Positions 3,635 to 63,894 of a stretch of 64,000 nucleotides of DNA are shown here, one piece after another. The stretch is taken from NCBI RefSeq assembly GCF_023055435.1, contig NW_025963968.1:5766001-5830000 (forward strand). The letters are read 5' to 3'. Source of the stretch: Haliotis rufescens. Its lineage: Eukaryota. The translations under genes were made by a program, and so were the position numbers. Numbering within the stretch: the first letter of the stretch is position 1; every line of letters begins with the position of its first letter. The notes beneath the pieces were generated by a model. That model worked only from the letters and a program-made list of their open reading frames with translations. It did no database searches and had not been told where the DNA came from.

Positions 3635-5788
3635 GGCCATGATCATACACCAACCACGACCTGACTATATCACATCAACTATGACCTGACTGTATCACAT
3701 ATCAACCACGACCTGACTGTATCACACATCAACCATGACCTGACTATATCACACAACACCCCCGACTCAAAAGTATCACACATCAACCACGACCTAACTG
3801 TATCACACATCGACCATGACCTGACTGTATCACACATCAACCATGACCTGACTATATCACACATCATCCACGACCTGATTGTATCACACACCAACCATGA
3901 CCTGACTATGTCACATTTCAATCATGACCTGACTATATCACACATCAACCACAACCTGACTATATCACACATCAACGACAACCTGACTATGTTACACATC
4001 AACCATGACCTGTCTATGTCACACTTCAATCACGACCTGACTGTATCACACATCAACCATGACCTGACTGTATCACACATCAACCACGACCCGACTGTAT
4101 CACACATCAACCACTTCCTGACTGTATCACACATCAACCATGACCTGACTGTATCACACATCAACCACTTCCTGACTGTATCACACACCAACCACGACCT
4201 GACTATATCATACATCAACCATGACCTGACTGTATCACACATCAACCATGACCTGACTGTATCACACATCAACCATGGCCTGACTGTATACCACATCAAC
4301 CACGACCTGACTATATCATACATCAAGCACTTCCTGACTGTATCACACATCAACCACTTCCTGACTGTATCACACATCAACCATGACCTGATCATATCAC
4401 GCATCAACCGTGCCTGACTTTATCACACATCAACCACTACCTGATTGTATCACACATCAATCATGACCTGACTGTATCACACATCAACCACGACCGGACT
4501 GTATCACACATCAATCATGACCTGACTGTATCACACATCAACTATGGCCTGACTGTATACCACATCAACCACGACCTGACTATATTATACATCAACCATG
4601 ACCTGACTGTATCACACATCAACCACGACCGGACTGTATCACACATCAATCATGACCTGACTGTATCACACATCAACCATGACCTGATCATATCACGCAT
4701 CAACCGTGCCTGACTTTATCACACATCAACCACTACCTGATTGTATCACACATCAATCATGACCTGACTGTATCACACATCAACCGTGACCTGACTGTAT
4801 CACACATCAACCATGACCTGACTGTATCACACATCAACCATGGCCTGACTGTATACCACATCAACCACGACCTGACTATATCATACATCAACCACTTCCT
4901 GACTGTATCACACATCAACCACTTCCTGACTGTATCACACATCAACCATGACCTGATCATATCACGCATCAACCGTGCCTGACTTTATCACACATCAACC
5001 ACTACCTGATTGTATCACACATCAATCATGACCTGACTGTATCACACATCAACCACGACCGGACTGTATCACACATCAATCATGACCTGACTGTATCACA
5101 CATCAATCATGACCTGACTGTATCACACATCTACCACGACCGGACTGTATCACACATCAATCATGACCTGACTGTATCACACATCAACTATGGCCTGACT
5201 GTATACCACATCAACCACGACCTGACTATATTATACATCAACCATGACCTGACTGTATCACACATCAACCACGACCGGACTGTATCACACATCAATCATG
5301 ACCTGACTGTATCACACATCAACCATGACCTGACTGTATCACACATCAACCAAGACCTGACTATATCACACATCAACGACAACCTCACTATGTTACACAT
5401 CAACCATGACCAGTCTATGTCACACTTCAATCACGACCTGACTGTATCACACATCAACCACGACCTGACTGTATCACACATCAACCATGACCTGATTATA
5501 TCACACATCAACCATGACCTAACAATATCACACACCAACCACGACCTGACTATATCGAACATCAACCATGACCTGACTTTATCACACGTCAACCACGACC
5601 TAACTGTATCACACATCAACCGTGACCTGACTGTATCACACACCAACCACGACCTGACTATATCATACATCAACCACTACCTGATTGTATCACACATCAA
5701 CCATGACCTGACTGTATCACACATCAAACACGACCTGACTATATCACACATCAACCACGACCTGACTATATCACACATCAAACACGAC
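3635..5788. repeat. 27-bp tandem repeat (accatgacctgactgtatcacacatca), ~2.1 kb
   Basis: Direct periodicity. It explains the HDLTVSHIN / MCDTVRSWL ORFs. Confidence 0.95.
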
Positions 5789-6049
5789 AAGTGGCTATTT
5801 TATGGTGGAATTGTGATCGTTACTACCAAAAGGAAACAGCATATCATACTTATATCATACTTATATCATACTTATCAAGTATAATAATACCCAAGTTTAG
5901 GTCGTCTTGGGGAGTCTGCAACTCTCACAACAGCCGGGCACATAAAGGTACAGCAAAGTACCACGCTGTACCTTACTTCCGGGGTATTTGTGTTTTATTA
6001 AATGCCATCCAGGTTCATTACAGATGGTATACATATACACTCTTCCATA

Positions 6050-9000
6050 TCCACATGATCACACTGTGTTTATTGCAAGTAAACATATACACTCAAACAT
6101 ACCCACATGTTCACACTGTGTTTATTGCAAGTAAACATACACACTCATACATACCCACATGTTCACACTGTGTTTATTGCAAGTTAACATATACACTCAT
6201 ACAGACCCACATGTTCACACTGTGTTTATTGCGAGTAAACATATACACTCATACTTACCCACATGTTCACACTGTGTTTTTTGCAAGTAAACATATACAC
6301 TCATACAGACCCACATGTTCACACTGTGTTTATTGCACGTAAACATATACACTCATACAGACCCATATGTTCACACTGTGTTTATTGCAAGTAAACATAT
6401 ACACTCAGACAGACCCACATGTTCACACTGTGTTTATTGCAAGTAAACATATACACTTATACAGACCCACATGTTCACACTGTGTTTATTGCAAGTAAAC
6501 ATATACACTCATACAGACCCACATGTTCACACTGTGTTTATTGCAAGTAAACATAAACACTCATACAGACCCACATCTTCACACTGTGTTTATTGCAAGT
6601 AAACACATACACTCATACATACCCACATGTTCACACTGTGTTTATTGCAAGTAAACATACTCTCATACATACCCATATGTACACACTGTGTTTATTGCAA
6701 GTAAACATATACACTCATACAGACCCACATCTTCACACTGTGTTTATTGCAAGTAAACATACTCTCATACATACCCATATGTCCACACTGTGTTTATTGC
6801 AAGTAAACATATACACTCATACAGACCCACATGTTCACACTGTGTTTATTGCGAGTACACCTATACACCCATACTTACCCACATGTTCATACTGTGTTTA
6901 TTGCAAGTAAACATATACACTCAGACAGACCCACATGTTCACACTGTGTTTATTGCAAGTAAACATATACACTCATACATACCCACATGTTCACACTGTG
7001 TTTATTGCAAGTTAACATATACACTCATACATACCCACATGTTCACACTGTGTTTATTGCAAGTAAACATATACACTCATACAGACCCACATGTTCACAC
7101 TGTGTTTATTGCGAGTAAACATATACACTCATACTTACCCACATGTTCACACTGTGTTTATTGCAAGTAAACGTATACACTCAGACAGACCCACATGTTC
7201 ACACTGTGTTTATTGCAAGTAAACATATACACTCATACATACCCACATGTTCACACTGTGTTTATTGCAAGTTAACATATACACTCATACAGACCCACAT
7301 GTTCACACTGTGTTTATTGCAAAAAAACATATACACTCATACAGACCCACATGTTCACACTGTGTTTATTGCAAGTAAACACATACACTCATACAGACCC
7401 ACACGTTCACACTGTGTTTATTGCAAGTAAACATACTCTCATACATACCCATATGTCCACACTGTGTTTATTGCAAGTAAACATACACACTCATACATAC
7501 CCACATGTTCACACTGTGTTTATTGCAAGTAAACATATACACTCATACAGACCCACATGTTCACACTGTGTTTATTGCGAGTAAACATATACACTCATAC
7601 AGACCCACATGTTCACACTGTGTTTATTGCAAGTAAACATATACACTCATACAGACCCACATGTTCACACTGTGTTTATTGCGAGTAAACATATACACTC
7701 ATACATACCCACATGTTCACACTGTGTTTATTGCAAGTAAACATATACACTCATACAGACCCACGTGTTCACATTGTGTTTATTGCGAGTAAACATATAC
7801 ACTCATACTTACCCACATGTTCACACTGTGTTTTTTGCAAGTAAACATATACACTCATACAGACCCACATGTTCACACTGTGTTTATTGCAAGTAAACAT
7901 ATACACACAGAGAGACCCACATGTTCACACTGTGTTTTTGCAAGTAAACATATACACTCATACAGACCCATATGTTCACACTGTGTTTATTGCAAGTAAA
8001 CATATACACTCAGACAGACCCACATGTTCACACTGTGTTTATTGCAAGTAAACATATACACTTATACAGACCCACATGTTCACACTGTGTTTATTGCAAG
8101 TAAACATATACACTCATACAGACCCATATGTTCACACTGTGTTTATTGCAAGTAAACATAAACACTCATACAGACCCACATCTTCACACTGTGTTTATTG
8201 CAAGTAAACACATACACTCATACATACCCACATGTTCACACTGTGTTTATTGCGAGTAAACATACTCTCATACATACCCATATGTACACACTGTGTTTAT
8301 TGCAAGTAAACATATACACTCATACAGACCAACATGTTCACACTGTGTTTATTGCAAGTAAACATACTCTCATACATACCCATATGTCCACACTGTGTTT
8401 ATTGCAAGTAAACATATACACTCATACAGACCCACATGTTCACACTGTGTTTATTGCGAGTACACCTATACACCCATACTTACCCACATGTTCATACTGT
8501 GTTTATTGCAAGTAAACATATACACTCAGACAGACCCACATGTTCACACTGTGTTTATTGCAAGTAAACATATACACTCATACATACCCACATGTTCACA
8601 CTGTGTTTATTGCAAGTTAACATATACACTCATACATACCCACATGTTCACACTGTGTTTATTGCAAGTAAACATATACACTCATACAGACCCACATGTT
8701 CACACTGTGTTTATTGCAAGTTAACATATACACTCATACATACCCACATGTTCACACTGTGTTTATTGCAAGTTAACATTTACACTCATACAGACCCACA
8801 TGTTCACACTGTGTTTATTGCAAGTAAACATATACACTTATACAGACCCACATGTTCACACTGTGTTTATTGCAAGTAAACATATACACTCATACTTATC
8901 CACATGTTCACACTGTGTTTATTGCAAGTAAACATATACACTCATACTTATCCACATGTTCACACTGTGTTTATTGCAAGTAAACATATACACTCATACT

Positions 9001-9092
9001 TATCCACATGTTCACACTGTGTTTATTGCAAGTAAACATATACACTCATACAGACCCACATGTTCACACTGTGTTTATTGCAAGTAAACATA
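6050..9092. repeat. 52-bp tandem repeat (cactgtgtttattgcaagtaaacatatacactcatacagacccacatgttca), ~3 kb, with a ~1.6-kb higher-order duplication
   Basis: Direct periodicity. The same run of variant units recurs 1605 bp apart (near-identical ORFs at 6593 and 8198). Confidence 0.95.
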
Positions 9093-16796: not shown

Positions 16797-17063
16797 CAAA
16801 GGTGATGTTTATGTATATTTTCTGTATATCTAACTATGGAAAAACACAATTTCTTCTCCTTGGATCAAGATGTTAAAAATTCGTGATTATCATTAAACTC
16901 CTTTTTGGAATAGTACATGACTATATGATCTTTAAAGATAACAGAAATTATTATTTAACCTGATTCCTTTTTGACTCATTGCCACAAGCAAACATAATGT
17001 GACTTGTAAGACGTTATACATATTCCCATAACTTGATAACAATGCATACATTGAACTGTCTTG

Positions 17064-17247
17064 CGTCACAGTGGACACTGTGCATTCTCGGTGTGTGACA
17101 GGTGATAGATTCCTCTCCCTCCTCCGTTGTCCGGCCCATCACGATGACTGTTGACGGGTGGACAAGGGAGGTATATAAACCAAGACGGCCGTCACCAGTA
17201 TCATTCCTTCTCCACCCTCGTCAACAGCAGACCAACAACAGCAACTG
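17064..17247 (+). promoter_or_regulatory. Gene A promoter and non-coding exon 1
   Basis: TATATAAA at 17172-17179, Inr-like TCATT at 17201, donor g|GTGAGT after 17247, upstream element cgtcacagtggacactgt at 17064-17081. Conserved in the inverted copy of gene B. Confidence 0.8.
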
Positions 17248-17464
17248 GTGAGTTCAATGATTGCTTGTAGCCGCTTAATATCGCCAATACAGTTCTTCTC
17301 CCAATGGTCCTAGATATTTGGACAAATACTTTGTACATATGACCTTCTGAAACGTAAGACCGAGTTAACGCAGATGTTTCGATACACTAAGAGAAAAGTT
17401 ACAAATGAATGAATGATGTAGAATCATGGCGGCATAAGGTACACTGGGTGTACTCAGGTAGTAA

Positions 17465-18725
17465 TTGTCTACCACGTGTGGTATATGATGTGCTGTATAT
17501 AAGGAAGTTTATTTCCATCCATTCTTCATATATCTGCTAAATTGGTTGGGTAAAGTTATTACCACGTGTGGTATTGGGGGTGCTGTGTTTAAGGAAGCTT
17601 GTATCCAGCCATTCTACATATATCTGCTTACTTGTTTGGATTAAGTTATTACCACGTGTGGTATAGGGTGTTCTGTGTTTAAGGAACCTTGTATCCATCC
17701 ATTCTACATATATCTGCTTACTTGGTTGGATTAAGCTATTACCACGTGTGGTATAGGGTGTGATGTGTTTAAGGAAGCTTGTACCCATCCATTCTACATA
17801 TATCTGCTTACTTGGTTGGATTAAGTTATTACCACGTGTGGTATAGGGTGTGCTGTGTTTAAGGAAGCTTGTACCCATCCATTCTTCATATATCTGCTTA
17901 CTTGTTTGGGTTAAGTTATTACCACGTGTGGTATAGGGTGTGCTGTGTTTAAGGAAGCTTGTACACATCCATTCTACATATATCTGCTTACTTGGTTGGA
18001 TTAAGTTATTACCACGTGTGGTATAGGGTGTGCTGTGTTTAAGGAAGCTTGTACCCATCCATTCTACATATATCTGCTTACTTGGTTGGATTAAGCTATT
18101 ACCACGTGTGGTATAGGGTGTTCTGTGTTTAAGGAAGCTTGTACCCATCCATTCTACATATATCTGCTTACTTGGTTGGATTAAGTTATTACCACGTGTG
18201 GTATAGGGTGTGCTGTGTTTAAGGAAGCTTGTACCCATCCATTCTTCATATATCTGCTTACTTGTTTGGGTTAAGTTATTACCACGTGTGGTATAGGGTG
18301 TGCTGTGTTTAAGGAAGCTTGTACACATCCATTCTACATATATCTGCTTACTTGGTTGGATTAAGTTATTACCACGTGTGGTATAGGGTGTGCTGTGTTT
18401 AAGGAAGCTTGTACCCATCCATTCTTCATATATCTGCTTACTTGTTTGGATTAAGTTATTACCACGTGTGGTATAGGGTGTGCTGTGTTTAAGGAAGCTT
18501 GTACACATCCATTCTACATATATCTGCTTACTTGTTTGGATTAAGTTATTACCACGTGTGGTATAGGGTGTGATGTGTTTAAGGAACCTTGTACCCATCC
18601 ATTCTTCATATATCTGCTTACTTGTTTGGATTAAGTTATTACCACGTGTGGTATAGGGTGCGATGTGTTTAAGGAAGCTTGTACCCATCCATTCTTCATA
18701 TATCTGCTTACTTGGTTGGGTTAAG
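17465..18725. repeat. 90-bp minisatellite (~14 units) in intron 1 of gene A
   Basis: Unit ttaagttattaccacgtgtggtatagggtgtgctgtgtttaaggaagcttgtacccatccattctacatatatctgcttacttggttgga. Confidence 0.95.
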
Positions 18726-18894
18726 TTTTGTACTGGTCATATTTCTAGGTTTACCATATGCGTGTCTTAGAGTTTACGAAAGTGGTAAACATTTGACTTT
18801 CCTCCCACGTGTATATGATCTGATCCATGATATAACTACCTCACTCTTCAGTCTCACGTGTGAAAATTCCCAACACGTGACACAGTGGTTCATG

Positions 18895-19120
18895 GCACTG
18901 TGCAGAGTTGCGTCCCTTTGGCAGACCAGAAACCTATGATTGTTGGTTCGAATCCCAGTTCTCACCTATTATGGTTCTAGGTTGTTAGCACCAGACCTGT
19001 GCTCGTGGATTTCACCAAAGTGATAAACGTCTGAGACATGCATTAATTCAGGCTTTCCAATCTGACACCCGTGATATAACTGGAATACTGTTAACAGCGG
19101 CGTTAAACCTAACTCACTCA
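18895..19120 (+). mobile_element. SINE family 3 in intron 1 of gene A
   Basis: ctgtgcagagttgcgtccc...ggttcgaatccc...ctggaatactgttaacagcggcgttaaacctaactcactca. Confidence 0.75.
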
Positions 19121-19215
19121 ATCGTACCATGGCCACAGGGCGGTCTGTATTAATAAGTTATGTTTCTATATGTTATGTTGTTTGCAGAAAGCCTACCGGA
19201 CAACAAACAGGTGCT

Positions 19216-22200
19216 ATGAGAACGACCACCATCTTGGCCATGGCCGTACTAGGCTGTTGCTGTCTTGTGACCGACGCTTTCGTAATTGGTACGTACATTC
19301 CTACCATGTGTCATCAAGAGCATACTGTTTCCTGAGTTGTCCATAGATCCAGCTGGCATGCGACGGAACTGCTTCATGATGCGGCCATAAAACTGTCTGA
19401 GTTCCCCAGTCGTCTAGGACGTCGGAGACCTCACGTCGGCTTCCCGCCCACATCAAACTAACACGCCATGATATAGCTGGAATACTGTTCAAAACGGCTT
19501 TGAACCAGCCTCACTCACTTTGTGGAGAATATTTCCAAATTTGACGTATCAGTGACTCAAAATTATGTCCGATGCAATTTCCTGTTGTGACATCAGTGGC
19601 GCAGGATAGGCTCACCCAGCATCATCGATATTTGATTGTGATTCATAAGGGTATTTGGCGTCATTTGTAAAAGTATGGTATGCATTATCTTGTATGAAAG
19701 ACTATCTACTTTCTAAGTTCAGGGAGCACAGGCGGCCCAGTCGTGTAAGGCGTCGCACTTCACTGTGCCGAGCCGTGTCCCTTCGGCGCGCACAAATCAT
19801 GTGGTGGTCGGGTTCGAATCAAAGCTTTGCTCTGAAAAACATTCTAGGTGTGTCTGCAGCTTTCACGTGGGCGTCGCCAAAATGGTATTCGTCAAAGATC
19901 TGCATCACCTTGACATCCATTTCAATCCTCTCTTTATTCCCTCATAAGCTTATTTGTCACAATGTAGCTNNNNNNNNNNNNNNNNNNNNNNNNNNNNNNN
20001 NNNNNNNNNNNNNNNNNNNNNNNNNNNNNNNNNNNNNNNNNNNNNNNNNNNNNNNNNNNNNNNNNNNNNNNNNNNNNNNNNNNNNNNNNNNNNNNNNNNN
20101 NNNNNNNNNNNNNNNNNNNNNNNNNNNNNNNNNNNNNNNNNNNNNATTTTCAGTTGTATGAAGATACTGCGCATTGTATCATCAGTCAAACAATACAGAG
20201 ATTAAAACCATAATCAAGCCACTGTATGAAATCAAACGATTTTCATTTATTCGAGTACAGCTGTACTCGGTTCATTAGTGTGCAAACAGGTCATGAGTAT
20301 AATGCGTCGTGAGTACACGTCGGCTTTCCTCCCACATCAAACTTACACGCCATGGTGTAGCTTGAATGCTGATCAAAACGGCGTTGAACCAAGCTCACTC
20401 ACTGACTTTGTGGAGAACAGAAATCAAAAGATTTTCATTAATTCGAGTACCAGCTGTATTCGGTTCAGTGATGTGCAAATAGGTCATACGAATAATGCGG
20501 TGACGAAAAAATGTTCTCAGCCGATTCAGTGGTATTTCCATTTGCATTTTGTAATAATCTGTCAAAGAATTTAACAACAGGTGTTACCGACGGGACAGGA
20601 TGCTCACCTTAGTGAGTAAATATGGTTTTAATTTTACTACAGGTGCCACAGGTGGGTAGGAAATGCTCACCTTAGGGCGAACACCTGGTATCATCACTTC
20701 TGGTAGTGATCCATAAACATATGCCTATCATGTAGTCTGAATCGCACAATGAACTCTGCTTTTAGCTGACATTTCTTATGATTATGAAATAGGGAGTTGT
20801 CGCTTGTACTTAGTTTGAATTTTGGTCTTTTTGCAGGTTCCCAATATGGCACCAATCCTGACAATCAACTGATAAATCGCAGGCAAGTTCCAGGATTTGG
20901 ACGTCAAGTCATCTACAATCCCACTAGGGCAACCCGAGGAAAAGACATAAAGTCCACTCAAGTCAAACAGGTTGCTCCTGCTCGACCAACCCCACAAGCC
21001 CCACAAGCTCAGAAAGTCTACCCTCCAGCCCCACAAGCTCAGAAAGTCTATCCCCCAGCCCCACAAGCTCAGAAAGTCTACCCTCCAGCCCCACAAACTC
21101 AGAAAGTCTATCCCCAAGCCCCACAAGCTCAGAAAGTCTATCCCCCAGCCCCACAAGCTCAGAAAGTCTATCCCCAAGCCCCACAAGCTCAGAAAGTCTA
21201 TCCCCCAGCCCCACAAGCTCAGAAAGTCTATCCCCCAGCCCCACAAGCTCAGAAAGTCTATCCCCCAGCCCCACAAGCTCAGAAAGTCTATTCCCCAACC
21301 CCACAAGCTCAGAAAGTCTATGTCCTAGCCCCACAGCCCCAGTATGTCCTTGCCAATGGCCTACCTGATCACTACGGTTCCCAGATCGATCAAGGATACG
21401 ACACTCAGCCTATATATGCTTCCAACAGAATCACACTTAGACACCAACCCTTCCCCCAGAATACTATCATCATCATCAAGGAGGACTCCCCTAATCCCCG
21501 TGGTGCTTCCGCCCCAGCACAGGCTCAAGCCCCACTCGCGCCAGCCCCTGCTTCAATCGTAATCGATGCCCCTACCCCTGTCTCTGCCCCTGCCCCTTCC
21601 CACATCTCATTAGACCCTTTCTCTGCCCCTCTCCCAACAGACCCTTTCTCAGCCGCTGGTCCAAACTTTGCAGACCCTTTCTCTGCTCCTCTCCCAACGG
21701 ACCCTTTTTCTGCCGCTGGCCCAAACTTTGCAGACCCTTTCTCTGCCCCTCTTCCAACAGACCCTTTCTCAGCCGCTGGCCCAAACTTTGCAGACCCTTT
21801 CTCAGCCTTTTTCCCTGCAGACCCTTTCTTTGATCCCACCACAGCCTCTGCAGACCCTTTCTCCCTATCGTACCCTGTAGATCCACTCGCTGCCCCCACA
21901 TCTGCGCCAGCTAAAACAGCAGCTTCCCCACAGGTACCCATCCCAGAACCCAACTCTCCAGCAGGGGCAGCATCTGGCCTCTACCCTGGTGCTTCCCAAC
22001 GTGGATACGACGCCCTCGACAGCATGTTGAGACTTAACATGCTCGCTGAAATGGAGCTTCCTCACTATGGAGGACATCACAACTTGCACCAGCTCACTGA
22101 AACCCTTGGAGCACCTGCCAGCAAGGGTGCGGCTCAGTATCAAGCTTCCAAGTCCTCTTCCCTGGGTCACCAGAACCAGTACGATCGCTTGTTCTCACAG

Positions 22201-22485
22201 CACCTCGCTGAGGCACTAGACCTTCCTCCACAACAAGGCCACCCAGCGTCAGGTGCTACCCACAATGCACCCCTCGCTAACAACCCCAACGTAGCTGTGT
22301 CACAAGCAGCAGCAGCAGCGGCACCGGCAGCTGCACCAGCACCAGAACCGACAGCAGTAAAGGCAGCATCACCAGCAGCTAAACCAGCTGGAGGTCACCA
22401 TGGTTACAACCCTTATGACCTCTACTCCATGCATCTCCGAGAGGCTCTTGACCTGCCTCCTATGCCCCCTATGCCTCGCGTGTGA
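19216..22485 (+). CDS. Gene A: secreted Pro/Ala/Gln-rich repetitive protein, 573 aa, join(19216..19288,20837..22485)
   Basis: Acceptor tttgcAG before 19188, ATG 19216, signal peptide MRTTTILAMAVLGCCCLVTDA, donor GTACGT at 19289 (phase 1), acceptor ctttttgcAG before 20837 in frame with the 562-aa ORF. Contains 11x PQAQKVYPPA, 3x 20-aa DPFSA repeats and 3 C-terminal LAEALDLP-type motifs. AATAAA at 22669. An N gap lies in intron 2. Confidence 0.9.
19970..20146. other. Assembly gap (177 N) in intron 2 of gene A
   Basis: Run of N. Confidence 1.
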
Positions 22486-23219
22486 TGTGATCTTGCCTTC
22501 ACATGACTGGTCGGTGCTTTAGCTTTCCACCAGTTAGCTCAGGATGATTGGCTCAGATACGTCTCAGATAGATGCATCTGTATTAATTATTTGAGTATGG
22601 TATTTAAAAGGAAACCTAGGTCCAAAGATAGACATGTCACTAGGTCATTGTTGGTGTTTGTGTATGACAATAAACAACTGAGAACGAAACAATATTTGTT
22701 TATCTTTACTTCTACAACTTAAGGTGGACTTCATGTTTAGTTGTTTGGCGTACTATAATTATCAACCTATAGTGACGTCAACCTGTTGTTCTTAAGGTTC
22801 TAAAAGAAGTCTTTAGAATTCGTTTTTGACCGCGACCACTGTTTTCTGTCACTATGAGGTATCCCCATGTTTGTATTTTATATTTCTTCTGGTATTCCTT
22901 CATTCAGACGGTTTATAAGTTGATTAAAACATCCCTACTCGGTTATGGTTGAAAATGATAAACGTCGCTCGCGTAAACACGATGAAGTTCGAGGTCAGGG
23001 TGATAGTGGCATTTCCCCCAAAATTATGTTGACATTTTACGAACATATGATGAAGTCGACCTGCTTTGTGCTTACCTCAGAAGTCCTGGGTGCGATTCCC
23101 AACATGGGTACACTCTGAAGCCCTTATCCGACGTACACCGTCGCGTAAAACCCAACTAACTCACCCACTCACTCACTCACTCACTCACTCACTCACTCAT
23201 GCTTTGACATGCCCCAATG

Positions 23220-24180
23220 ACACATGTACAATACCTGTATACACGACTCACTCCATGTACAATATCTATAGCTGTATACATGACTCACTACATGTACAAT
23301 ACCTATGGCTGTTTACACGAATCACTAAATGTACAATACAGTTGTATACACGACTCACTACATGTACAATACCTATAGCTGTATACACGACTCACTTCAT
23401 GTACAATATCTATAGCTGTATACACGACTCACTACATGTACAATACCTATAGCTGTATACACGACTCACTACATGTACAATACCTATAGCTGTATACACG
23501 ACTCACTACATGTACAATACCTATAGCTGTATACACGACTCACTACATGTACAATACCTATAGCTGTATACACGACTCACTACATGTAAAATGACTATAG
23601 CTGTATACTGACTCACTACATGTACAATACCTATAGCTGTAACACGACTCACTACATGTACAATACCTATAGCTGTATAGACGACTCACTACATGTACAA
23701 TACATACAGCTGTATACACGACTCACTACATGTACAATACCTATGGCTGTATACACGACTCACTACATGTACAATACATATAGCTGTATACATGACTTAC
23801 TGCATGTGATATGCGTATAGCTGAATACATGACTTACTGCATGTGATATGCGTATAGCTGTATACACGACTCACTACATGTACAATACCTATGGCTGTAT
23901 ACATGACTTGCTGCATGTGATATACGTATAGCTGTATACATGACTTACTGCATGTGATATACGTATAGCTGTATACATGACTTACTGCATGTGATATGCG
24001 TATAGCTGAATACATGACTTACTGCATGTGATATACGTATAGCTGAATACACGACTTACTGCATGTGATGTACGTATAGCTGAATACACGACTTACTGCA
24101 TGTGATATACGTATAGCTGAATACATGACTTACTGCATGTGATATACGTATAGCTGTATACATGACTTACTGCATGTGCA
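23220..24180. repeat. 37-bp minisatellite with two subtypes
   Basis: tacaatacctatagctgtatacacgactcactacatg switches near 23790 to tgatatacgtatagctgtatacatgacttactgcatg. Confidence 0.9.
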
Positions 24181-24289
24181 TAAAGAATATCTATCTATGA
24201 CTTGGATGATGACTTTAACGTCTACGTTTAATGTTAGCATGACCACTCATTTCAAAGAGATATTTTCAAGCAAGCATCTCATTGGGGCT

Positions 24290-26280: not shown

Positions 26281-26624
26281 TGTCAAATATTATCCAACCA
26301 TCTTTACTATTGGCCTCATGGCCAGACTATACAATATAAATTCTGTCCTGTTCTGTTTATAATTATAGTACGCCAAGTAACTAAACAGAGGTGTAGATGA
26401 AAAGCTAACCAAATATTGTTTCGTTCTCAAATGTTTATTATCAGACACAAACACCAACGATGACCTAGTGACATGTCAACCTCTGGTCAATTTTTCTTTT
26501 GAAATTATACCATACACAAATAATTAATTCAGACGCATCTATCTGAGACGTATCTGAGCCAATCATCCTGAGCTAACTGGTGGAAAGCTAGAGCACCGAC
26601 CAGTCATGTGAAGGCAAGATCACA

Positions 26625-28799
26625 TCACACGCGAGGCATAGGGGGCATAGGAGGCAGGTCAAGAGCCTCTCGGAGATGCATGGAGTAGAGGTCATAAGGG
26701 TTGTAACCATGGGGACCTCCAGCTGGTTTAGCTGCTGGTGATGCTGCCTTTACTGCTGCCGGTGCCGCTGCTGCTGCTGCTGCTTGTGACACAGCTACGT
26801 TGGGGTTGTTAGCGAGGGGTGCATTGTGGGTAGCACCTGACGCTGGGTGGCCTTGTTGTGGAGGAAGGTCTAGTGCCTCAGCGAGGTGCTGTGAGAACAA
26901 GCGATCGTACTGGTTCTGGTGACCCAGGGAAGAGGACTTGGAAGCTTGATACTGAGCTGCACCCCGGCTGGCAGGTGCTCCAAGGGTTTCAGCGAGCTGG
27001 TGCAAGTTGTGATGTCCTCCATAGTGAGGAAGCTCCATTTCAGCGAGCATGCTGAGTCTCAACATGTTGTCGAGGGCGTCGTATCCACGTTGGGAAGCAC
27101 CAGGGTAGAGGCCAGATGCAGCCCCTGCTGGAGAGTTGGGTTCTGGGATGGGTACCTGTGGGGAAGCTGCTGTTTTAGCTGGCGCAGATGTGGGGGCAGC
27201 CAATGGATCTACAGGGTTAGATAGGGAGAAAGGGTCTGCAGAGGCTGTGGTGGGATCAAAGAAAGGGTCTGCTGGGAAAGGGGCATTGAAAGGGTCTGCA
27301 AAGTTTGGGCCAGCGGCTGAGAAAGGGTCTGTTGGGGTAGGGGCATCGATTACGATTGAAGCAGGGGCTGGGGCGAGTGGGGCTTGAGCCTGTGCAGGGG
27401 CGGAAGCACCACGGGGATTAGGGGAGTCCTCCTTGATGATGATGATAGTATTCTGGGGGAAGGGTTGGTGTCTAAGTGTGTTTCTGTTGGAAGCATGTAT
27501 AGGCTGAGTGTCGTATCCTTGATCGATCTGGGAACCGTAGTGATCAGGTAGGCCATTGGCAACGACATACTGGGGCTGTGGAGCTGGGGGATAGACGTTT
27601 TGAGTTTGTGTGGCTGGGGGATAGACTTTCTGAGCTTGTGGGGCTGGGACATAGACTTTCTGAGCTTGTGGGGCTGGGGGATAGACTTTCTGAGCTTGTG
27701 GGGCTGGTCGAGCAGGAGCAACCTGTTTGACTTGAGTGGACTTGATGGCTTTTCCTCGGATTGCTCTAGTGGGATTGTAGATGACTTGACGTCCAAATCG
27801 TGGAATTTGACGGCGATTTATCAGTTGAATGTAAGGATTGATGCCATATGGGGAACCTGCAAGAAGACCAAAATGCAATGTAGGTACAAGCGACAACTCC
27901 ATATTTCATAATCATAAGAAATGTCGGCTAAAAGCAGAGTCCATTGTACGATTCCGACTACATCAGAAGTGATGATACCAGGTGTTCGCCCTAAGGTGAG
28001 CATTATTACTACCTTAGGCTAAACGCAGAGTCCATTGTACGATTCAGACTACACCAAAGGCATATGTTTATGGATCACTATCAGAAGTGATGATACCAGG
28101 TGTTCGCCCTAGGATGTGCAGGGGCGGTCGGGTAGCCCAGTGGTTAAACCGTTCGCTCGTCACGCCGAAGACCCGGGTTCGATTTCCGACATGGGTACAA
28201 TGCGTGAAGCCCATTTCTGGTGTCCCCCGCCGTGATATTGCTGGAATATTGCTAAAAGCGGCGTAAAACAATACTCACTAAGGTGAGCATCCTGTCCCGT
28301 CGGTAACACCTGTTGTTAAATTCTTTGACAGATTATTACAAAATGCAAATGGTAATACCACTGAATCGGCTGAGAACATTTTTCGTTCCGTATTATCTTC
28401 ATGCACATCCCTGAACTTAATATAGCTGGTACTCGAATTAATGAAAATCTTTTGATTTCTGCTCTCCACAAAGTGAGTGAGTGAATTTGGTTCAACGCCA
28501 TTTTGAACAGTATTCCAGCTATATCATGGCGTGTTAGTTTGATGTGGGAGGAAAACCGACGTGAGGTCTCCGACGTTTATGCACAGCGTGCGACGTCCTA
28601 GACGAAGGGGGAACTCAGACAGAATTATGGCCGCATCATGAAGCAGTTCCGTCGCATGCCAGCTGGATCTATGGACAACTCAGGAAACAGTATGTTCTTG
28701 ATGACACATGGTAGGAATGTACGTACCAATTACGAAAGCGTCGGTCACAAGACAGCAACAGCCTAGTACGGCCATGGCCAAGATGGTGGTCGTTCTCAT
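26625..28799 (-). CDS. Gene B: paralogue of gene A, secreted Pro/Ala/Gln-rich protein, 434 aa, complement(join(26625..27856,28727..28799))
   Basis: The 73-nt coding part of exon 2 is identical to gene A and the splice sites are the same. It has 4 decapeptide repeats and a reduced DPF block. AATAAA (minus) at 26434-26439. Confidence 0.9.
28121..28279 (+). mobile_element. SINE family 1 in intron 2 of gene B (absent from gene A)
   Basis: Full-length copy inserted in gttcgccctaaggtgagc. Confidence 0.9.
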
Positions 28800-29024
28800 A
28801 GCACCTGTTTGTTGTCCGGTAGGCTTTCTGAAAACAACACGTCAACAAATAAAATCAGTACTTGTTAATACTGACCGACCCAAGTGAGTCAGTTACGAGT
28901 GATTCAGTTATATCATGGCTCAGATCTTAAACATGTGGGAGGAAAGTCCAAAATTTTACCACTTTCGTAAACTCTCAGACACGTATATGGTACTGACAAA
29001 CCTCGAAACATGACCAGTACAACA

Positions 29025-29875
29025 CTTAACTCAACCAAGTAAGCAGATATATGTAGAATGGATGGGTACAAGCTTCTTTAAACACAGCACACTATATACC
29101 ACACGTGGTAATAACTTAACCCAACCAAGTAAGCAGATATATGTAGAATGGATGGGTACAAGCTTCTTTAAACACAGCACACTATATACCACACGTGGTA
29201 ATAACTTAACCCAACCAAGTAAGCAGATATATGCTGAGTGAGTGAGTGAGGTTTTACGCCGCTTTTAGCAATATTCCAGCAATGATATATATAGAATGGA
29301 TGGATACACGCTTCCTTAAACACAGCACACTATATACCACATGGTAATAACTTAACCCAAACAAGTAAGCAGATATATGTAGAGTGAGTGAGGTTTTACG
29401 CCGCTTTTAGCGATATTCCAGCAATGATATATATAGAATGGATGGATACAAGCTTCCTTAAACACAGCACACTATATACCACACGTGGTAATAACTTAAC
29501 CCAAACAAGTAAGCAGATATATGCTGAGTGAGTGAGTGAGGTTTTACGCCGCTTTTAGCAATATTCCAGCAATGATATATATAGAATGGATGGAAACAAG
29601 CTTCCTTAAACACAGCACACTATATACCACACGTGGTAATAACTTAACCCAAACAAGTAAGCAGATATATGTAGAGTGAGTGAGGTTTTACGCCGCTTTT
29701 AGCGATATTCCAGCAATGATATATATAGAATGGATGGATACAAGGTTCCTTAAACACAGCACACCCTGTACCACACGTGGTAATAACTTAATCCAAACAA
29801 GTAAGCAGATATATGTAGAATGGATGGATACTAACTTCCTTATATTCAGCATACTAAATACCACATGTGGTTGAT
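29025..29875. repeat. 90-bp minisatellite of gene B intron 1, with captured SINE tails and a 290-bp higher-order repeat
   Basis: Reverse complement of the gene A unit. Four units carry gagtgagtgaggttttacgccgcttttagc(a/g)atattccagcaat. Confidence 0.9.
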
Positions 29876-30089
29876 AATTACTACCAGAGTACCTTATGTC
29901 GTTATGATTCTACATTATCCATTAAGGCTAATTTGTAACTTTTCTCTTAGTGTATCGAAACATCTGCGTTAACTCGGTCTTGCGTTTCAGAAGGTCATAT
30001 GTACAAAGTATTTGTCCAAATATCTAGGACCATTAGGAGAAGAACTGTATTGGCGATATTAAGCGGCTGCAAGCAATCATTGAACTCAC

Positions 30090-30299
30090 CAGTTGCTGTT
30101 GTTGGTCAGCTGTTGACGAGGGTGGAGAAGGAATGATACTGGTGACGGCCGTCTTGGTTTATATACCTCCCTCGTCCACCCGTCAACAGTCATCGTGATG
30201 GGCCGGACAACGGAGGAGGGAGAGGAATCTATCACCTGTCACACAACGAGAATGCACAGTGTCCACTGTGACGCAAGACAGTTCAATGTATGCATTGTT
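30090..30299 (-). promoter_or_regulatory. Gene B promoter and non-coding exon 1
   Basis: Near-identical reverse complement of 17038-17247. TATA at 30158-30165, donor after 30090. Confidence 0.8.
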
Positions 30300-33228: not shown

Positions 33229-33356
33229 ACAGTGACCATTGTTACGTCACTGTGTCACGATGCTCCCTGAAGGATGTCCGGCTGGTGTATAAAAGTATTC
33301 CTCATTTCTCTGGACACCATCATTCTCCAATTGTAGCCACAGAGCAGCAGCAACAG
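33229..33356 (+). promoter_or_regulatory. Gene C1 promoter and non-coding exon 1 (equivalent TATA boxes at 41413, 46403, 51571, 56738, 61906)
   Basis: TATAAAA at 33288-33294, Inr-like TCATT at 33320, donor cag|GTGAGC after 33356, CRE-like site upstream. Confidence 0.8.
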
Positions 33357-33499: not shown

Positions 33500-34018
33500 C
33501 CGTTAGAGATCGCCTCGTGGAAACAGCGGAAGGTCCGGGCTTCGATCCTTGGCCGCGTCACACCAAAATACATAAAAAAAAAAGATGATACTTGTTGTTA
33601 CCCTGCCAGGCGCTCGGCATTAAGGGGCTAAAGCAAGGAGTGGTCGGCTCGGAGTCACTATACTGTGTCTGAGTGGGGTATTCATGTCAAGGGACGACCG
33701 GGTAGCCTAGTGGTTAAAGCGTTCGCTCGTCACGCCAAAGCCCCGGGTTCGATTTCCGACATGGGTACAATGTGTGAATCCCATTTCTAGTGTTCCCCGC
33801 CGTGATATTGCTGGAACATTCCTAAAAGTGGCGTAAAACCATACTCACTCACTCACTATTCACGTCAAACTGCGGCAATGCCAGTGGGCTAGCACTATAA
33901 AATCGGCATTAGTCCGGACTAGTACAAGAAAACACACACAAACACACACGTGCATACATGTCACTATATGAGTGCAATAATTTTGAAAGCGACATTAAAC
34001 CCCATTTTACCTCACCAC
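33500..34018 (+). mobile_element. SINE family 4 with a nested family-1 SINE (33691-33857) in intron 1 of C1; equivalent in every C copy
   Basis: TSD attcatgtcaa (33680-33690) / attcacgtcaa (33858-33868) around the inner SINE. Confidence 0.8.
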
Positions 34019-34288
34019 CTGTTCGGGAGATCTAAATATATGTGTGCGAATGTGTCATTTGTTAGCTTTCATAAAATCTCAGTCAGTAAATGTAAATAGT
34101 AAACTCTGAACCAAAGCAAATATAATGGTCGACTAACCATTAATACACCTCGAAGTGTGTTGTCATTATGTTTGTTGATATAACTTGCATTAAATATTAC
34201 TTTTCAATATACTATATCATCTTGCATTTAACATTAATGTTCGTTATACATTCACTTTTACAGAACAGAAATTACAACCACCCGAATC

Positions 34289-35130
34289 ATGAGGACGGCT
34301 ATAATTCTACCTGCTGCCATCCTGGCCTGTTTGTGTGTCATAAGTGATGCCCGTTACATTCGTAAGTATTGAAGTCAATCGCATCGTCAAACTCATTACC
34401 CGGAACAAAAATATGAAATTTATGAATGTCACTCAGCGTCATTTAACTACTCATTACCTCTAGCAAATAGTGGGTATTCTACCTTATTCCTGACTGTTGA
34501 CCTCCTATTATCAGTGTGTTTTAACAATGAATCGTTGATGGAAATCGTTATGATTTTATTGTCTCCATCCTTCTGGACTTTCATGGGCCATACACACCAT
34601 CATGCATACCTCTGAGGAACTGACGGCAGAGGACCAGTATAGTTAAAGCGTTGGCTGTTCAATCCAAAAACTTGGAACATTCTGGGACACCCTTTCTTTT
34701 GGGATCGTAGAAGTAATGTTGCCGAAAACGCCATACTCACTCACTCTAATACCTAAGGGATTTAATTCCAGGTGCTTCAGGATTGCAAGTGCAGCCCAGG
34801 ACTGTCAAAGGGTATGCCAACCAACAACCCAGGGTGATTATCATCAACCAAGACAGACCTAGGCAGGCTGCACGGGCACCTGCTGCTGCACGATCTGGAT
34901 ACGCACAACGACACGACAACGGATACAACAACTTCCTCAACGACTACCTCCTTGCTGATGCCCTTGATATCAACCATCCCGGTCTATTGCACGGCTTCAA
35001 CCAGATTGCCTCCCCTTACGCCCCCTCCGCCCGTAGAGGTAGAAACAGCTACGACCCTCTCTACGCTGCGCTCATCTTGGACCAGCTTGACGCTCAGCCA
35101 ATTGGAGCCAGCTCCGCCATCGTTGGTTAG
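34289..35130 (+). CDS. Gene C1: small secreted protein, 143 aa, join(34289..34361,34772..35130)
   Basis: Signal peptide MRTAIILPAAILACLCVISDA, donor GTAAGT at 34362, acceptor ttccAG before 34772 in frame with the 115-aa ORF, AATAAA at 35223. Confidence 0.9.
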
Positions 35131-35916
35131 ATGATGTGCTTTTAACGAAACATGTTTTCTCGGAGTGACATGAGACGGAGTTTTTGAGATTATGCTTTTG
35201 TGAAATGGTTTCTGTCTAATGAAATAAAATGTTTAATTGACTACCTTGCATTCATTGTTATCGATTGTTCCACCACACTCACTGTATCGGTATGGTCTTG
35301 AATGTATGTATACATATGTATATTTATATCGCACTACTTGTAAATGGGGTGAGAATATTAAAGAGAATTTCATCGCACCGAACACATCATACGAACATAC
35401 ACTACACACTATGAATGAACAGCACATTGCACATTAAACATTATTCATTAAGGTCATACACTACAAGTTAAGTCAAAGCACGTGATGCAGGGAAGATATA
35501 TGTACATATGCTCACACTTATAGACATAGATATGTTCAGTGCATTGGTATACATATATATATATATATAGATATACATATAGACATGCCTATATTTTATT
35601 GACATTAGTGATAAATACTTTTCAATTGAAGGATATTCGCAGTAGTATATTTATATACATAATGTGCATATTCTATTTTCTCTACTAACATTGTGCCATT
35701 GAGTTAAGCTTAAACCGTGGTTTTCAGGTAATGATGGTATGGTTCAATGATTTGTAACTACTTAAACATAAATAATGATAATAATAATAATAATAATAAT
35801 AATAGTTCTGTAATACTACACATAATTCATTACACACCATGCATTGCACTTATATAATTACACACCATGCATTACACTTATATAATTACCCACTCTTAAT
35901 CACACTACCGCACTCT

Positions 35917-42363: not shown

Positions 42364-43219
42364 ATGAGGACGGCTATAATTCTACCTGCTGCCATCCTGG
42401 CCTGTTTGTGTGTCATAAGTGATGCCCGTTACATTCGTAAGTATTGAAGTCAATCGCATCGTCATACTCATTACCCGGCGCAAAAAAATATGAAATTTAT
42501 TGATGTCCCTCTGAGTCGTTTAACTACTCATTACCTCTAGCAAATATTGGGTATTCTTCCTTATTCCTGACTGTTGACCTCCTATCATCAGTGTGTTTTA
42601 ACAATGATTCGTTGATGGAAATCGTTATGATTTTATTGTCTCCATCCTTCTGGACTTTCATGGGCCATACACACCATCATGCATACCTCTGAGGAACTGA
42701 CGGCAGAGGACCAATATAGTTGTTAAACCGTTGGCTGTTCAATCTCAAAACTTTGTTTCCGACATTGAAACAATGTGGGACACCCTTTCTTTTGTGATCG
42801 TAGAAGTCATGTTGCCGAAAACGCCATACTCACTCTAATACCTAGGCGATTTAATTCCAGGTGCCTCAGGATTGCAAGTGCAGCCCAGGACTGTCAAAGG
42901 GTATGCCAACCAACAACCCAGGGTGATTATCATCAACCAAGACAGACCTAGGCAGGCTGCACGGGTACCTACTGCTGCACGATCTGGATACGCACCACGA
43001 CACGGCAACGGATACAACAACTTCCTCAACGACTACCTCCTTGCTGATGCCCTTGATATCAACCATCCCGGTCTATTGCACGGCTTCAACCAGATTGCCT
43101 CCCCTTACGCCCCCTCCGCCCGTACAGGTAGAAACAGCTACGACCCTCTCTACGCTGCGCTCATCTTGGACCAGCTTGACGCTCAGCCAATTGGAGCCAG
43201 CTCCGCCATCGTTGGTTAG
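42364..43219 (+). CDS. Gene C2, 143 aa, join(42364..42436,42861..43219)
   Basis: Same structure as C1, intact frame. Confidence 0.9.
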
Positions 43220-47531: not shown

Positions 47532-48391
47532 ATGAGGACGGCTATAATTCTACCTGCTGCCATCCTGGCCTGTTTGTGTGTCATAAGTGATGCCCGTTAC
47601 ATTCGTAAGTATTGAAGTCAATCGCATCGTCATACTCACTACCCGGAGCAAAAAAATATGAAATTTATTGATGTCCCTCTGAGTCGTTTAACTACTCATT
47701 ACCTCTAGCAAATATTGGGTATTCTTCCTTATTCCTGACTGTTGACCTCCTATCATCAGTGTGTTTTAACAATGAATCGTTGATGGAAATCGTTATGATT
47801 TTATTGTCTCCATCCTTCTGGACTTTCATGGGCCATACACACCATCATGCATACCTCTGAGGAACTGACGGCAGAGGACCAATATAGTTGTTAAACCGTT
47901 GGCTGTTCAATCTCAAAACTTTGTTTCCGACATTGAAACAATGTGGGACACCCTTTCTTTTGTGATCGTAGAAGTCATGTTGCCGAAAACGCCATACTCA
48001 CTCACTCTAATACCTAGGCGATTTAATTCCAGGTGCCTCAGGATTGCAAGTGCAGCCCAGGACTGTCAAAGGGTATGCCAACCAACAACCCAGGGTGATT
48101 ATCATCAACCAAGACAGACCTAGGCAGGCTGCACGGGTACCTACTGCTGCACGATCTGGATACGCACCACGACACGGCAACGGATACAACAACTTCCTCA
48201 ACGACTACCTCCTTGCTGATGCCCTTGATATCAACCATCCCGGTCTATTGCACGGCTTCAACCAGATTGCCTCCCCTTACGCCCCCTCCGCCCGTACAGG
48301 TAGAAACAGCTACGACCCTCTCTACGCTGCGCTCATCTTGGACCAGCTTGACGCTCAGCCAATTGGAGCCAGCTCCGCCATCGTTGGTTAG
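47532..48391 (+). CDS. Gene C3, 143 aa, join(47532..47604,48033..48391)
   Basis: Same structure as C1, intact frame. Confidence 0.9.
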
Positions 48392-52699: not shown

Positions 52700-53559
52700 A
52701 TGAGGACGGCTATAATTCTACCTGCTGCCATCCTGGCCTGTTTGTGTGTCATAAGTGATGCCCGTTACATTCGTAAGTATTGAAGTCAATCGCATCGTCA
52801 TACTCACTACCCGGAGCAAAAAAATATGAAATTTATTGATGTCCCTCTGAGTCGTTTAACTACTCATTACCTCTAGCAAATATTGGGTATTCTTCCTTAT
52901 TCCTGACTGTTGACCTCCTATCATCAGTGTGTTTTAACAATGATTCGTTGATGGAAATCGTTATGATTTTATTGTCTCCATCCTTCTGGACTTTCATGGG
53001 CCATACACACTATCATGCATACCTCTGAGGAACTGACGGCAGAGGACCAATATAGTTGTTAAACCGTTGGCTGTTCAATCTCAAAACTTTGTTTCCGACA
53101 TTGAAACAATGTGGGACACCCTTTCTTTTGTGATCGTAGAAGTCATGTTGCCGAAAACGCCATACTCACTCACTCTAATACCTAGGCGATTTAATTCCAG
53201 GTGCCTCAGGATTGCAAGTGCAGCCCAGGACTGTCAAAGGGTATGCCAACCAACAACCCAGGGTGATTATCATCAACCAAGACAAACCTAGGCAGGCTGC
53301 ACGGGTACCTACTGCTGCACGATCTGGATACGCACCACGACACGGCAACGGATACAACAACTTCCTCAACGACTACCTCCTTGCTGATGCCCTTGATATC
53401 AACCATCCCGGTCTATTGCACGGCTTCAACCAGATTGCCTCCCCTTACGCCCCCTCCGCCCGTACAGGTAGAAACAGCTACGACCCTCTCTACGCTGCGC
53501 TCATCTTGGACCAGCTTGACGCTCAGCCAATTGGAGCCAGCTCCGCCATCGTTGGTTAG
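52700..53559 (+). CDS. Gene C4, 143 aa, join(52700..52772,53201..53559)
   Basis: Same structure; carries the QDKP variant. Confidence 0.9.
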
Positions 53560-57866: not shown

Positions 57867-58726
57867 ATGAGGACGGCTATAATTCTACCTGCTGCCATCC
57901 TGGCCTGTTTGTGTGTCATAAGTGATGCCCGTTACATTCGTAAGTATTGAAGTCAATCGCATCGTCATACTCACTACCCGGAGCAAAAAAATATGAAATT
58001 TATTGATGTCCCTCTGAGTCGTTTAACTACTCATTACCTCTAGCAAATATTGGGTATTCTTCCTTATTCCTGACTGTTGACCTCCTATCATCAGTGTGTT
58101 TTAACAATGATTCGTTGATGGAAATCGTTATGATTTTATTGTCTCCATCCTTCTGGACTTTCATGGGCCATACACACTATCATGCATACCTCTGAGGAAC
58201 TGACGGCAGAGGACCAATATAGTTGTTAAACCGTTGGCTGTTCAATCTCAAAACTTTGTTTCCGACATTGAAACAATGTGGGACACCCTTTCTTTTGTGA
58301 TCGTAGAAGTCATGTTGCCGAAAACGCCATACTCACTCACTCTAATACCTAGGCGATTTAATTCCAGGTGCCTCAGGATTGCAAGTGCAGCCCAGGACTG
58401 TCAAAGGGTATGCCAACCAACAACCCAGGGTGATTATCATCAACCAAGACAAACCTAGGCAGGCTGCACGGGTACCTACTGCTGCACGATCTGGATACGC
58501 ACCACGACACGGCAACGGATACAACAACTTCCTCAACGACTACCTCCTTGCTGATGCCCTTGATATCAACCATCCCGGTCTATTGCACGGCTTCAACCAG
58601 ATTGCCTCCCCTTACGCCCCCTCCGCCCGTACAGGTAGAAACAGCTACGACCCTCTCTACGCTGCGCTCATCTTGGACCAGCTTGACGCTCAGCCAATTG
58701 GAGCCAGCTCCGCCATCGTTGGTTAG
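57867..58726 (+). CDS. Gene C5, 143 aa, join(57867..57939,58368..58726)
   Basis: Same structure; carries the QDKP variant. Confidence 0.9.
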
Positions 58727-63034: not shown

Positions 63035-63894
63035 ATGAGGACGGCTATAATTCTACCTGCTGCCATCCTGGCCTGTTTGTGTGTCATAAGTGATGCCCGT
63101 TACATTCGTAAGTATTGAAGTCAATCGCATCGTCATACTCATTACCCGGAGCAAAAAAATATGAAATTTATTGATGTCCCTCTGAGTCGTTTAACTACTC
63201 ATTACCTCTAGCAAATATTGGGTATTCTTCCTTATTCCTGACTGTTGACCTCCTATCATCAGTGTGTTTTAACAATGATTCGTTGATGGAAATCGTTATG
63301 ATTTTATTGTCTCCATCCTTCTGGACTTTCATGGGCCATACACACTATCATGCATACCTCTGAGGAACTGACGGCAGAGGACCAATATAGCTGTTAAACC
63401 GTTGGCTGTTCAATCTCAAAACTTTGTTTCCGACATTGAAACAATGTGGGACACCCTTTCTTTTGTGATCGTAGAAGTCATGTTGCCGAAAACGCCATAC
63501 TCACTCACTCTAATACCTAGGCGATTTAATTCCAGGTGCCTCAGGATTGCAAGTGCAGCCCAGGACTGTCAAAGGGTATGCCAACCAACAACCAAGGGTG
63601 ATTATCATCAACCAAGACAAACCTAGGCAGGCTGCACGGGTACCTACTGCTGCACGATCTGGATACGCACCACGACACGGCAACGGATACAACAACTTCC
63701 TCAACGACTACCTCCTTGCTGATGCCCTTGATATCAACCATCCCGGTCTATTGCACGGCTTCAACCAGATTGCCTCCCCTTACGCCCCCTCCGCCCGTAC
63801 AGGTAGAAACAGCTACGACCCTCTCTACGCTGCGCTCATCTTGGACCAGCTTGACGCTCAGCCAATTGGAGCCAGCTCCGCCATCGTTGGTTAG
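63035..63894 (+). CDS. Gene C6, 143 aa, join(63035..63107,63536..63894)
   Basis: Same structure, QDKP variant. The 3' UTR is cut by the window end. Confidence 0.9.

What the first reader, a model, noticed from the sequence alone, without database searches (positions are those of the whole stretch)
22003..22458. Repeated acidic-hydrophobic motif shared by long and short proteins
A and B carry three copies: GYDALD(S/N)MLRL(N/S)MLAEMELP, QYDRLFSQHLAEALDLP and PYDLYSMHLREALDLP. C carries two: GYNNFLNDYLLADALDI (34921-34971) and SYDPLYAALILDQLDA (35047-35094). The rough consensus is Y-D/N-x-L/F-(F/Y/L)-x(3-4)-L-x-(E/D)-x-L-D. These are the only likely ordered segments in otherwise disordered chains. 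Inference: a short amphipathic helix used for self- or hetero-assembly or for ion/mineral binding, possibly an undescribed motif.
Basis: partly seen in the sequence, partly recalled or inferred. Interest (0 to 1): 0.7.

Follow-up and report, generated by a model that had tools for sequence, protein, structure and literature searches.

The report
Abalone secreted helix-motif protein family
The repeated motif is real and marks a cluster of 13 related abalone genes for predicted secreted, mostly floppy proteins, in which two or three short conserved acidic-hydrophobic stretches likely act as sticky patches that would let the chains clump into an extracellular material; where the proteins go and what they bind is untested.

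Summary
The long (A, B) and short (C) proteins share them by descent. They are paralogues with the same 73-base signal exon, intron phase and a second conserved IIIxED island. The cluster holds 4 long and 9 short genes (8 in the window); B is identical to an NCBI Haliotis rufescens protein. C is spliced in RNA-type contigs. Relatives turned up only in Haliotis: 3 hits among 1.84 billion cluster representatives, no Pfam match. The motifs are more conserved than their flanks (pN/pS 0.26-0.36 against 0.57-0.76) and are the only long helices in low-confidence models. The first long-form motif resembles the other two no more than chance. The whole proteins are basic, and no family peptide was found in the adult H. 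laevigata shell-proteome supplements, so mineral binding is weak. Best reading: hydrophobic stickers on basic Pro/Ala/Gln spacers that assemble an extracellular organic material outside the adult mineral layers. Binding could not be modelled. An undescribed family of a familiar kind.

The parts
19216..19288 (+). Gene A signal-peptide exon, coding part (73 bases, phase-1 intron follows)
   Evidence: signal peptide judged by eye, no predictor run
20837..22485 (+). Gene A last exon; 573-aa precursor with QKVYPPAPQA-type decapeptide repeats, IIIIKED island, DPF repeats and three motifs
22003..22062 (+). A motif 1 (subtype 1, positional homologue of C motif 1)
22177..22227 (+). A motif 2 (subtype 2, homologue of C motif 2)
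22411..22458 (+). A motif 3 (likely duplicate of motif 2)
26625..27856 (-). Gene B last exon; 434-aa precursor identical to P0004 (XP_046340766.2); motifs at 27086-27027, 26912-26862, 26699-26652
28727..28799 (-). Gene B signal-peptide exon, identical to A's; A and B form an inverted duplication
33288..33356 (+). TATA-like box and inferred non-coding first exon of C1
   Evidence: sequence only; not covered by the contigs laid
34289..34361 (+). Gene C1 signal-peptide exon (73 coding bases, same phase as A and B)
34772..35130 (+). Gene C1 last exon; 143-aa precursor; motifs at 34921-34971 and 35047-35094
   Evidence: (joined to 34361 in an RNA-type contig)
42364..43219 (+). Gene C2, start to stop
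47532..48391 (+). Gene C3, start to stop
52700..53559 (+). Gene C4, start to stop
57867..58726 (+). Gene C5, start to stop
63035..63894 (+). Gene C6, start to stop; C7-C9 and long genes D and E follow beyond the window (G000:C190:5834205-5871970)

Best explanation
The motifs are the conserved core of a family of predicted secreted, mostly disordered proteins encoded by a 13-gene abalone cluster, and they likely fold into short Leu/Met-rich acidic helices that would stick to one another and to the basic spacers, so that chains with two or three such patches assemble into an extracellular organic material. Shown: gene structure, paralogy, splicing of C, conservation, charge pattern. Predicted: helices, secretion. 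Inferred: sticker-driven assembly, later Tyr cross-linking through the KVYP repeats of the long forms, and a destination other than the adult mineral layers (periostracum, early shell, a chitinous cuticle or mucus). Amplification of the short gene would supply a high dose.
For: Shared 73-base signal exon and intron phase in long and short genes. Held-out profile test 2 and 0 of 3000 shuffles; pairwise local alignments of short against long reach at most 2 of 500 shuffles in 7 of 12 pairs. Motif identity above flank identity in 6 of 6 pairs, Fisher p<0.01 in 4 of 6; pN/pS 0.26-0.36 against 0.57-0.76 in three non-independent paralogue pairs. L+M+F make up 26-37% of motif residues against 4-8% elsewhere; motifs net -3 to -8, the rest positive in 9 of 11 proteins. 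Helices predicted on all five motifs modelled. No Cys or Trp in the six mature chains counted; Pro, Ala and Gln dominate the long forms, a make-up like Lottia shell proteins (PMC3374290, PMC7489238, passages). A GAAP shell-protein gene lies about 18 kb beyond the cluster and chitin-synthase exons about 50 kb before it.
Against: No family peptide among 12 short motifs sought in the H. laevigata shell-proteome supplements, where the GAAP control was found in 13 of 27 files. Models are poor (mean pLDDT 46 and 53, pTM 0.14-0.15) and show no fold. The helices are not clearly amphipathic. Conservation was not significant in 2 of 6 pairs (p 0.057 and 0.17), and 2 of 12 pairwise alignments were near chance (48 and 178 of 500). 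No tissue or stage is known. Neighbouring genes are weak evidence.
Confidence: 0.45

Rival explanations
1. The motifs are docking helices that fold on a separate folded partner (a matrix, chitin-binding or cell-surface protein), and the chains are flexible multivalent tethers.
For: Short conserved hydrophobic stretches in disordered chains under purifying selection; two distinct subtypes kept in both gene classes would suit specific partners.
Against: No partner gene identified; near-identical amplification of C (0-3 differences in 432 coding bases among C2-C7) suits bulk material better than a specific adaptor.
Confidence: 0.22
2. The acidic helices bind calcium or a calcium-carbonate surface and the proteins are true shell-matrix proteins, perhaps of the larval or juvenile shell.
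For: Conserved D/E at both ends of each motif; GAAP shell gene next door; shell genes restricted to early stages exist in abalone (PMC2034539, passages).
Against: Only -1 to -4 net charge per motif, whole proteins basic; not found in adult nacre or prismatic peptide tables, though that database may lack the transcripts.
Confidence: 0.15
3. The proteins are precursors from which the motifs are cut out as signalling or defence peptides.
For: Signal peptide, repeated short conserved segments with loose spacers; a conserved RR site near the start of the long forms.
Against: No conserved basic sites flank the motifs: the R before motif 1 is H in H. rubra and H. asinina, motifs 2 and 3 have none, and the RR before C motif 2 is in 1 of 9 copies. 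No amidation Gly; hundreds of residues of Pro-rich repeats.
Confidence: 0.08
4. The helices insert into lipid membranes or air-water or substrate interfaces, as in a mucus surfactant or adhesive primer.
For: Mildly hydrophobic helices; motif 2 of A has a moment of 0.44 (shuffle p 0.049); Tyr/Lys/Pro decapeptides recall mussel adhesive repeats (recalled).
Against: C motifs have almost no hydrophobic moment; acidic charge disfavours anionic membranes.
Confidence: 0.1

Closest known systems
RefSeq-predicted Haliotis proteins XP_046340766.2, XP_046340773.2, XP_046340768.1 and relatives (H. cracherodii, H. rubra, H. asinina)
   Same: These are the genes themselves or their orthologues.
   Different: They carry only automatic names (uncharacterized, extensin-like, adhesive plaque matrix protein-like); long and short forms are not linked by those names, and no paper on them was found.
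Lineage-restricted, low-complexity secreted proteins of mollusc shells (H. asinina UP1-UP4, GAAP, QRP; Pro/Ala/Gln-rich Lottia proteins such as Lotgi1|235497)
   Same: Signal peptide, predicted disorder, P/A/Q bias, short repeats, basic pI, genus-restricted range (PMC6003135 and PMC3374290, passages).
   Different: No sequence homology found; this family was not found in the H. laevigata shell peptide tables; it has ordered acidic-hydrophobic motifs shared by two size classes.
Has-vm2 (H. asinina veliger mantle 2)
   Same: Secreted, proline-rich repeats, early mantle expression would fit the absence from adult shell (PMC2034539, section 14).
   Different: 20 repeats directly after the signal with conserved L, P, S, I, V, E, R/K in 319 aa; ours are Q/K/V/Y/P/A decapeptides further in. 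Its sequence is in a figure and could not be compared.
Mussel foot protein 1, plant Pro-rich wall proteins and low-complexity insect cuticle proteins (recalled, not tested)
   Same: Tandem Pro/Tyr/Lys repeats that are cross-linked through Tyr; Ala/Pro linkers.
   Different: Compositional likeness only; none is known to me to carry these helical motifs; no profile hit.

Membership tests
Abalone shell-matrix proteins | Peptides recovered from cleaned shell | tested here: not met
   No family peptide in PMC6003135 supplements: 8 family motifs sought in all 27 files, 4 more in files 1-24; the EALDL and YDLY hits were unrelated proteins; GAAP control found. Adult H. laevigata only; database from adult tissues; long cells are cut.
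Abalone shell-matrix proteins | Expression in shell-forming mantle | not testable with these tools
   Runs are coded and carry no tissue.
Secreted repetitive low-complexity structural proteins of molluscs | N-terminal signal peptide | tested here: met
   Hydrophobic 21-residue leader ending S/T-D-A in all 13 genes; judged by eye, no predictor.
Secreted repetitive low-complexity structural proteins of molluscs | Biased, repetitive, predicted disordered chain without a known domain | tested here: met
   Composition, pTM 0.14-0.15, no Pfam match above cut-off.
Secreted repetitive low-complexity structural proteins of molluscs | Narrow taxonomic range | tested here: met
   All hits named Haliotis; other vetigastropods may be thinly sampled.
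Secreted repetitive low-complexity structural proteins of molluscs | Part of an extracellular material | not testable with these tools
   Needs proteomics or localisation.
Amphipathic helix | Hydrophobic moment above that of shuffled sequence | tested here: not met
   1 of 13 instances at p<=0.05; both C motifs below most shuffles.
Acidic calcium-binding biomineral proteins | Asp/Glu-rich chain with low pI | tested here: not met
   pI 8.4-9.8; D+E at most 8% in six chains.
Neuropeptide-type precursors | Conserved basic cleavage sites flanking each repeated peptide | tested here: not met
Has-vm2 | Sequence identity with DQ298397 | not testable with these tools
   Sequence is in a figure; the described architecture does not fit.

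The most novel reading that the evidence does not exclude
An undescribed abalone-only two-component assembly system: short two-sticker proteins, dosed by a recently amplified gene array, and long three-sticker elastic proteins co-assemble through a shared acidic Leu/Met helix into a charge-patterned coacervate that is then tyrosine-tanned into a non-mineral tissue. The 16-residue helix would be a new, portable cross-linking element for protein materials.
Probability: 0.2. Interest if true: 0.65.

Novelty: new member of a known kind. Interest (0 to 1): 0.35.

Why it matters
Mollusc secretomes are full of genus-specific disordered proteins whose working parts cannot be picked out. Here selection marks the working parts: 16-residue motifs kept across abalone species while the spacers vary from about 120 to 650 residues. 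That gives cheap peptide-level tests of how such proteins assemble, and links genes that automatic annotation names as unrelated. It does not overturn anything known, and the range found is one genus.

Tried and rejected
Complex prediction of A with C was not available, so there is no binding verdict. Pfam: only a weak PKMT hit on A at E 0.098, below cut-off; none for three orthologues. PDB sequences: one hit at E 0.57. ESM Atlas: best feature score 0.85 for C, no usable feature hit for the B C-terminal part, all TM-scores at or below 0.36. No fold search was run because the models are too poor. No run holding C is on record as RNA; contigs cannot give level or tissue. The last exon of A was covered only by short pieces in the four runs laid, which says nothing on expression. 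Own-genome searches with C, the A C-terminus and H. asinina C found only this cluster (loose seeds, lower bounds). Accession and motif searches of papers found nothing relevant; motif searches of the supplements of PMC4944945 and PMC5400390 found nothing; those of PMC1676022 (H. asinina mantle ESTs) could not be read and may bear on expression. The first ungapped profile test gave long-to-short values of 123-186 of 5000 for the best site and was followed by gapped tests. Rejected: independent origin of the motif in unrelated proteins (shared exons), assembly artefact as the whole story (copies differ; three short H. asinina records exist), Has-vm2 identity (architecture differs; unresolved). 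Earlier scan notes: none near or alike; those listed concern other genes.

Full report
Observation. The three motifs of gene A (22003-22062, 22177-22227, 22411-22458), their copies in B on the minus strand and the two motifs of C (34921-34971, 35047-35094) are in the sequence as described. The window holds six copies of C, five of them on a unit of about 5.17 kb that is about 99% identical.

What the genes are. Protein B is identical to an NCBI Haliotis rufescens protein, and C is 95% identical to another. In 264 kb around the window there are 13 genes: four long (A 573, B 434, D 673, E 457 aa) and nine short (137-143 aa). All 13 begin with a hydrophobic leader. In the seven genes printed it lies on a 73-base coding exon followed by a phase-1 GT intron, and all 13 translate open with that exon joined to one last exon. 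Contigs of RNA-type runs cover the two C exons and not the intron; one contig from a related organism holds 34264-34361 and 34772-35228 end to end. So C is a spliced, transcribed gene; tissue and level cannot be read.

Long and short are paralogues. Besides the leader they share an island P-x-x-I-I-I-x-x-D in all 11 proteins examined and a colinear stretch of motif 1, a His/Gly linker and motif 2. A profile built only from six long-form segments scores both held-out short proteins above nearly all shuffles (2 and 0 of 3000). Local alignments of 2 short against 6 long proteins reach at most 2 of 500 shuffles in 7 pairs, 15-17 in 3, and 48 and 178 in 2. H. asinina has short forms and two long genes fused in one annotation, on contigs of the same length. 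A tree of the core splits short from long with full support and groups D with the second H. asinina long gene at 94/96, just under the bar.

Is it one motif? Partly. Short-form motifs find long proteins above chance (0, 17, 0, 10 of 1000), through motifs 2 and 3. Isolated long-form motifs find short proteins only weakly (250 and 284 of 2000). Motifs 2 and 3 do not find motif 1 (227, 1000, 122, 33 of 1000). I read this as two subtypes: motif 1 matches C motif 1 by position, and motifs 2 and 3 match C motif 2. A profile of all motifs separates the 13 family ORFs (57-116 bits) from the other ORFs among 6700 (13 bits or less), but this is circular because it was trained on the family.

Selection. 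Motif identity exceeds flank identity in 6 of 6 comparisons (Fisher p 0.0017, 0.0062, 0.0032, 0.0057, 0.17, 0.057). Between D and the other three long genes, pN/pS is 0.26-0.36 in motifs and 0.57-0.76 outside, with equal synonymous divergence; these three pairs are not independent.

Physical nature. AlphaFold2 puts helices on all five motifs modelled and almost nowhere else, at low confidence (C: mean pLDDT 46, pTM 0.14; A C-terminus: 53, 0.15). The helices are hydrophobic and mildly acidic rather than faced: 1 of 13 instances has a moment above 95% of shuffles, and C's two are below 83-91% of shuffles. Leu, Met and Phe are concentrated in the motifs (26-37% against 4-8%); the motifs sum to -3 to -8 while the rest of the chain is positive in 9 of 11 proteins. 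The long forms add 4-22 Val-Tyr-containing decapeptide units and 0-9 DPF repeats.

Range and print. A profile of the core found 3 proteins among 1.84 billion cluster representatives, all Haliotis and all already in hand. Word-seeded searches gave 2, 5 and 1 proteins, all Haliotis; two of them scored only the top 8000 or so candidates. Pfam, PDB and the ESM Atlas gave nothing usable. Full-text searches for accession stems and motif strings found no relevant paper. Other vetigastropods may be poorly represented, so the true range could be wider.

Shell or not. The cluster is flanked by a gene matching the shell protein GAAP about 18 kb beyond E and by chitin-synthase exons about 50 kb before A. 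Yet no family peptide appeared in the supplements of the adult H. laevigata nacre and prism proteome, while GAAP did. That database came from adult haemolymph, tentacle and mantle, and four of the terms were not sought in files 25-27, so this counts against a major adult shell role only.

Mechanism. I favour stickers and spacers (0.45): after secretion the acidic-hydrophobic helices would associate with each other and with the basic spacers; chains with two or three stickers would form a network, and the Tyr/Lys repeats could then be tanned. The assembly and tanning steps are inference. Rivals are docking on a folded partner (0.22), mineral binding in early shell (0.15), interface binding (0.10) and peptide release (0.08).

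Papers seen. PMC6003135: passages, term searches of the supplements, part 1 of 3 of file 20. PMC3374290 and PMC7489238: passages. PMC2034539: passages and section 14. PMC4944945 and PMC5400390: supplement searches only. PMC1676022: listing only, supplements unreadable. Comparisons with mussel, plant and insect proteins are recalled.

Verdict. A real, selected, apparently undescribed motif pair that defines an abalone gene family of a familiar kind: lineage-restricted secreted low-complexity proteins in a tandem cluster. Interest 0.35.

Noticed in passing
window 41893-64000, continuing to G000:C190:5835061: Tandem array of about 5.17-kb units, about 99% identical, each with one intact C gene; C4 and C5 have identical coding sequence and intron. 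Recent amplification or homogenisation; copy number may vary.
   Followed up: partly
window 17038-22719 and 26389-30299: A and B lie in an inverted duplication facing each other, including upstream repeats.
   Followed up: partly
window 21572-21880: The DPF repeat block of the long forms begins, in H. rubra and H. asinina, with a stretch much like C motif 2 (it scored 21 bits on the short-form profile): possibly a proline-broken extra copy of the motif.
   Followed up: partly
window 21463-21486 and 34831-34851: Second conserved island, a run of Ile followed by K/N-E/Q-D, in all 11 family proteins examined; a candidate beta-strand sticker.
   Followed up: partly
window 20837-20930: Long forms keep an N-terminal N-P-Y-like stretch followed by RR and I-I-Y-N-P-T, a possible propeptide cut site.
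   Followed up: no
G000:C190:5890067-5891302 (L007): GAAP-like shell-protein exon, closely matching H. laevigata CLC_21 as printed in PMC6003135.
   Followed up: partly
G000:C190:5711552-5733615 (L011, L013): Chitin-synthase exons; the last has Pfam Chitin_synth_2 at E 1.7e-14.
   Followed up: partly
window 36158-37657: Broken LINE-type reverse-transcriptase fragment (RVT_1, E 4.9e-17) between C1 and C2.
   Followed up: no
window 33690-33857: Very abundant short interspersed repeat in the first intron of C1, with thousands of contigs laid on it.
   Followed up: no
window 3640-5790, 6027-9092, 17470-18727, 23222-24182: Minisatellite arrays (units of about 27, 52, 90 and 37 bases) that give long spurious ORFs.
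   Followed up: no
PMC6003135 supplementary file 20, entry CLC_12027: This Gly/Met-rich shell protein ends in a short Met/Leu-rich stretch with N-M-I and A-E-M at the same spacing as motif 1; seen by eye, not tested.
   Followed up: no
P0015 (H. asinina): The annotation appears to fuse two neighbouring long genes into one 992-aa protein.
   Followed up: partly
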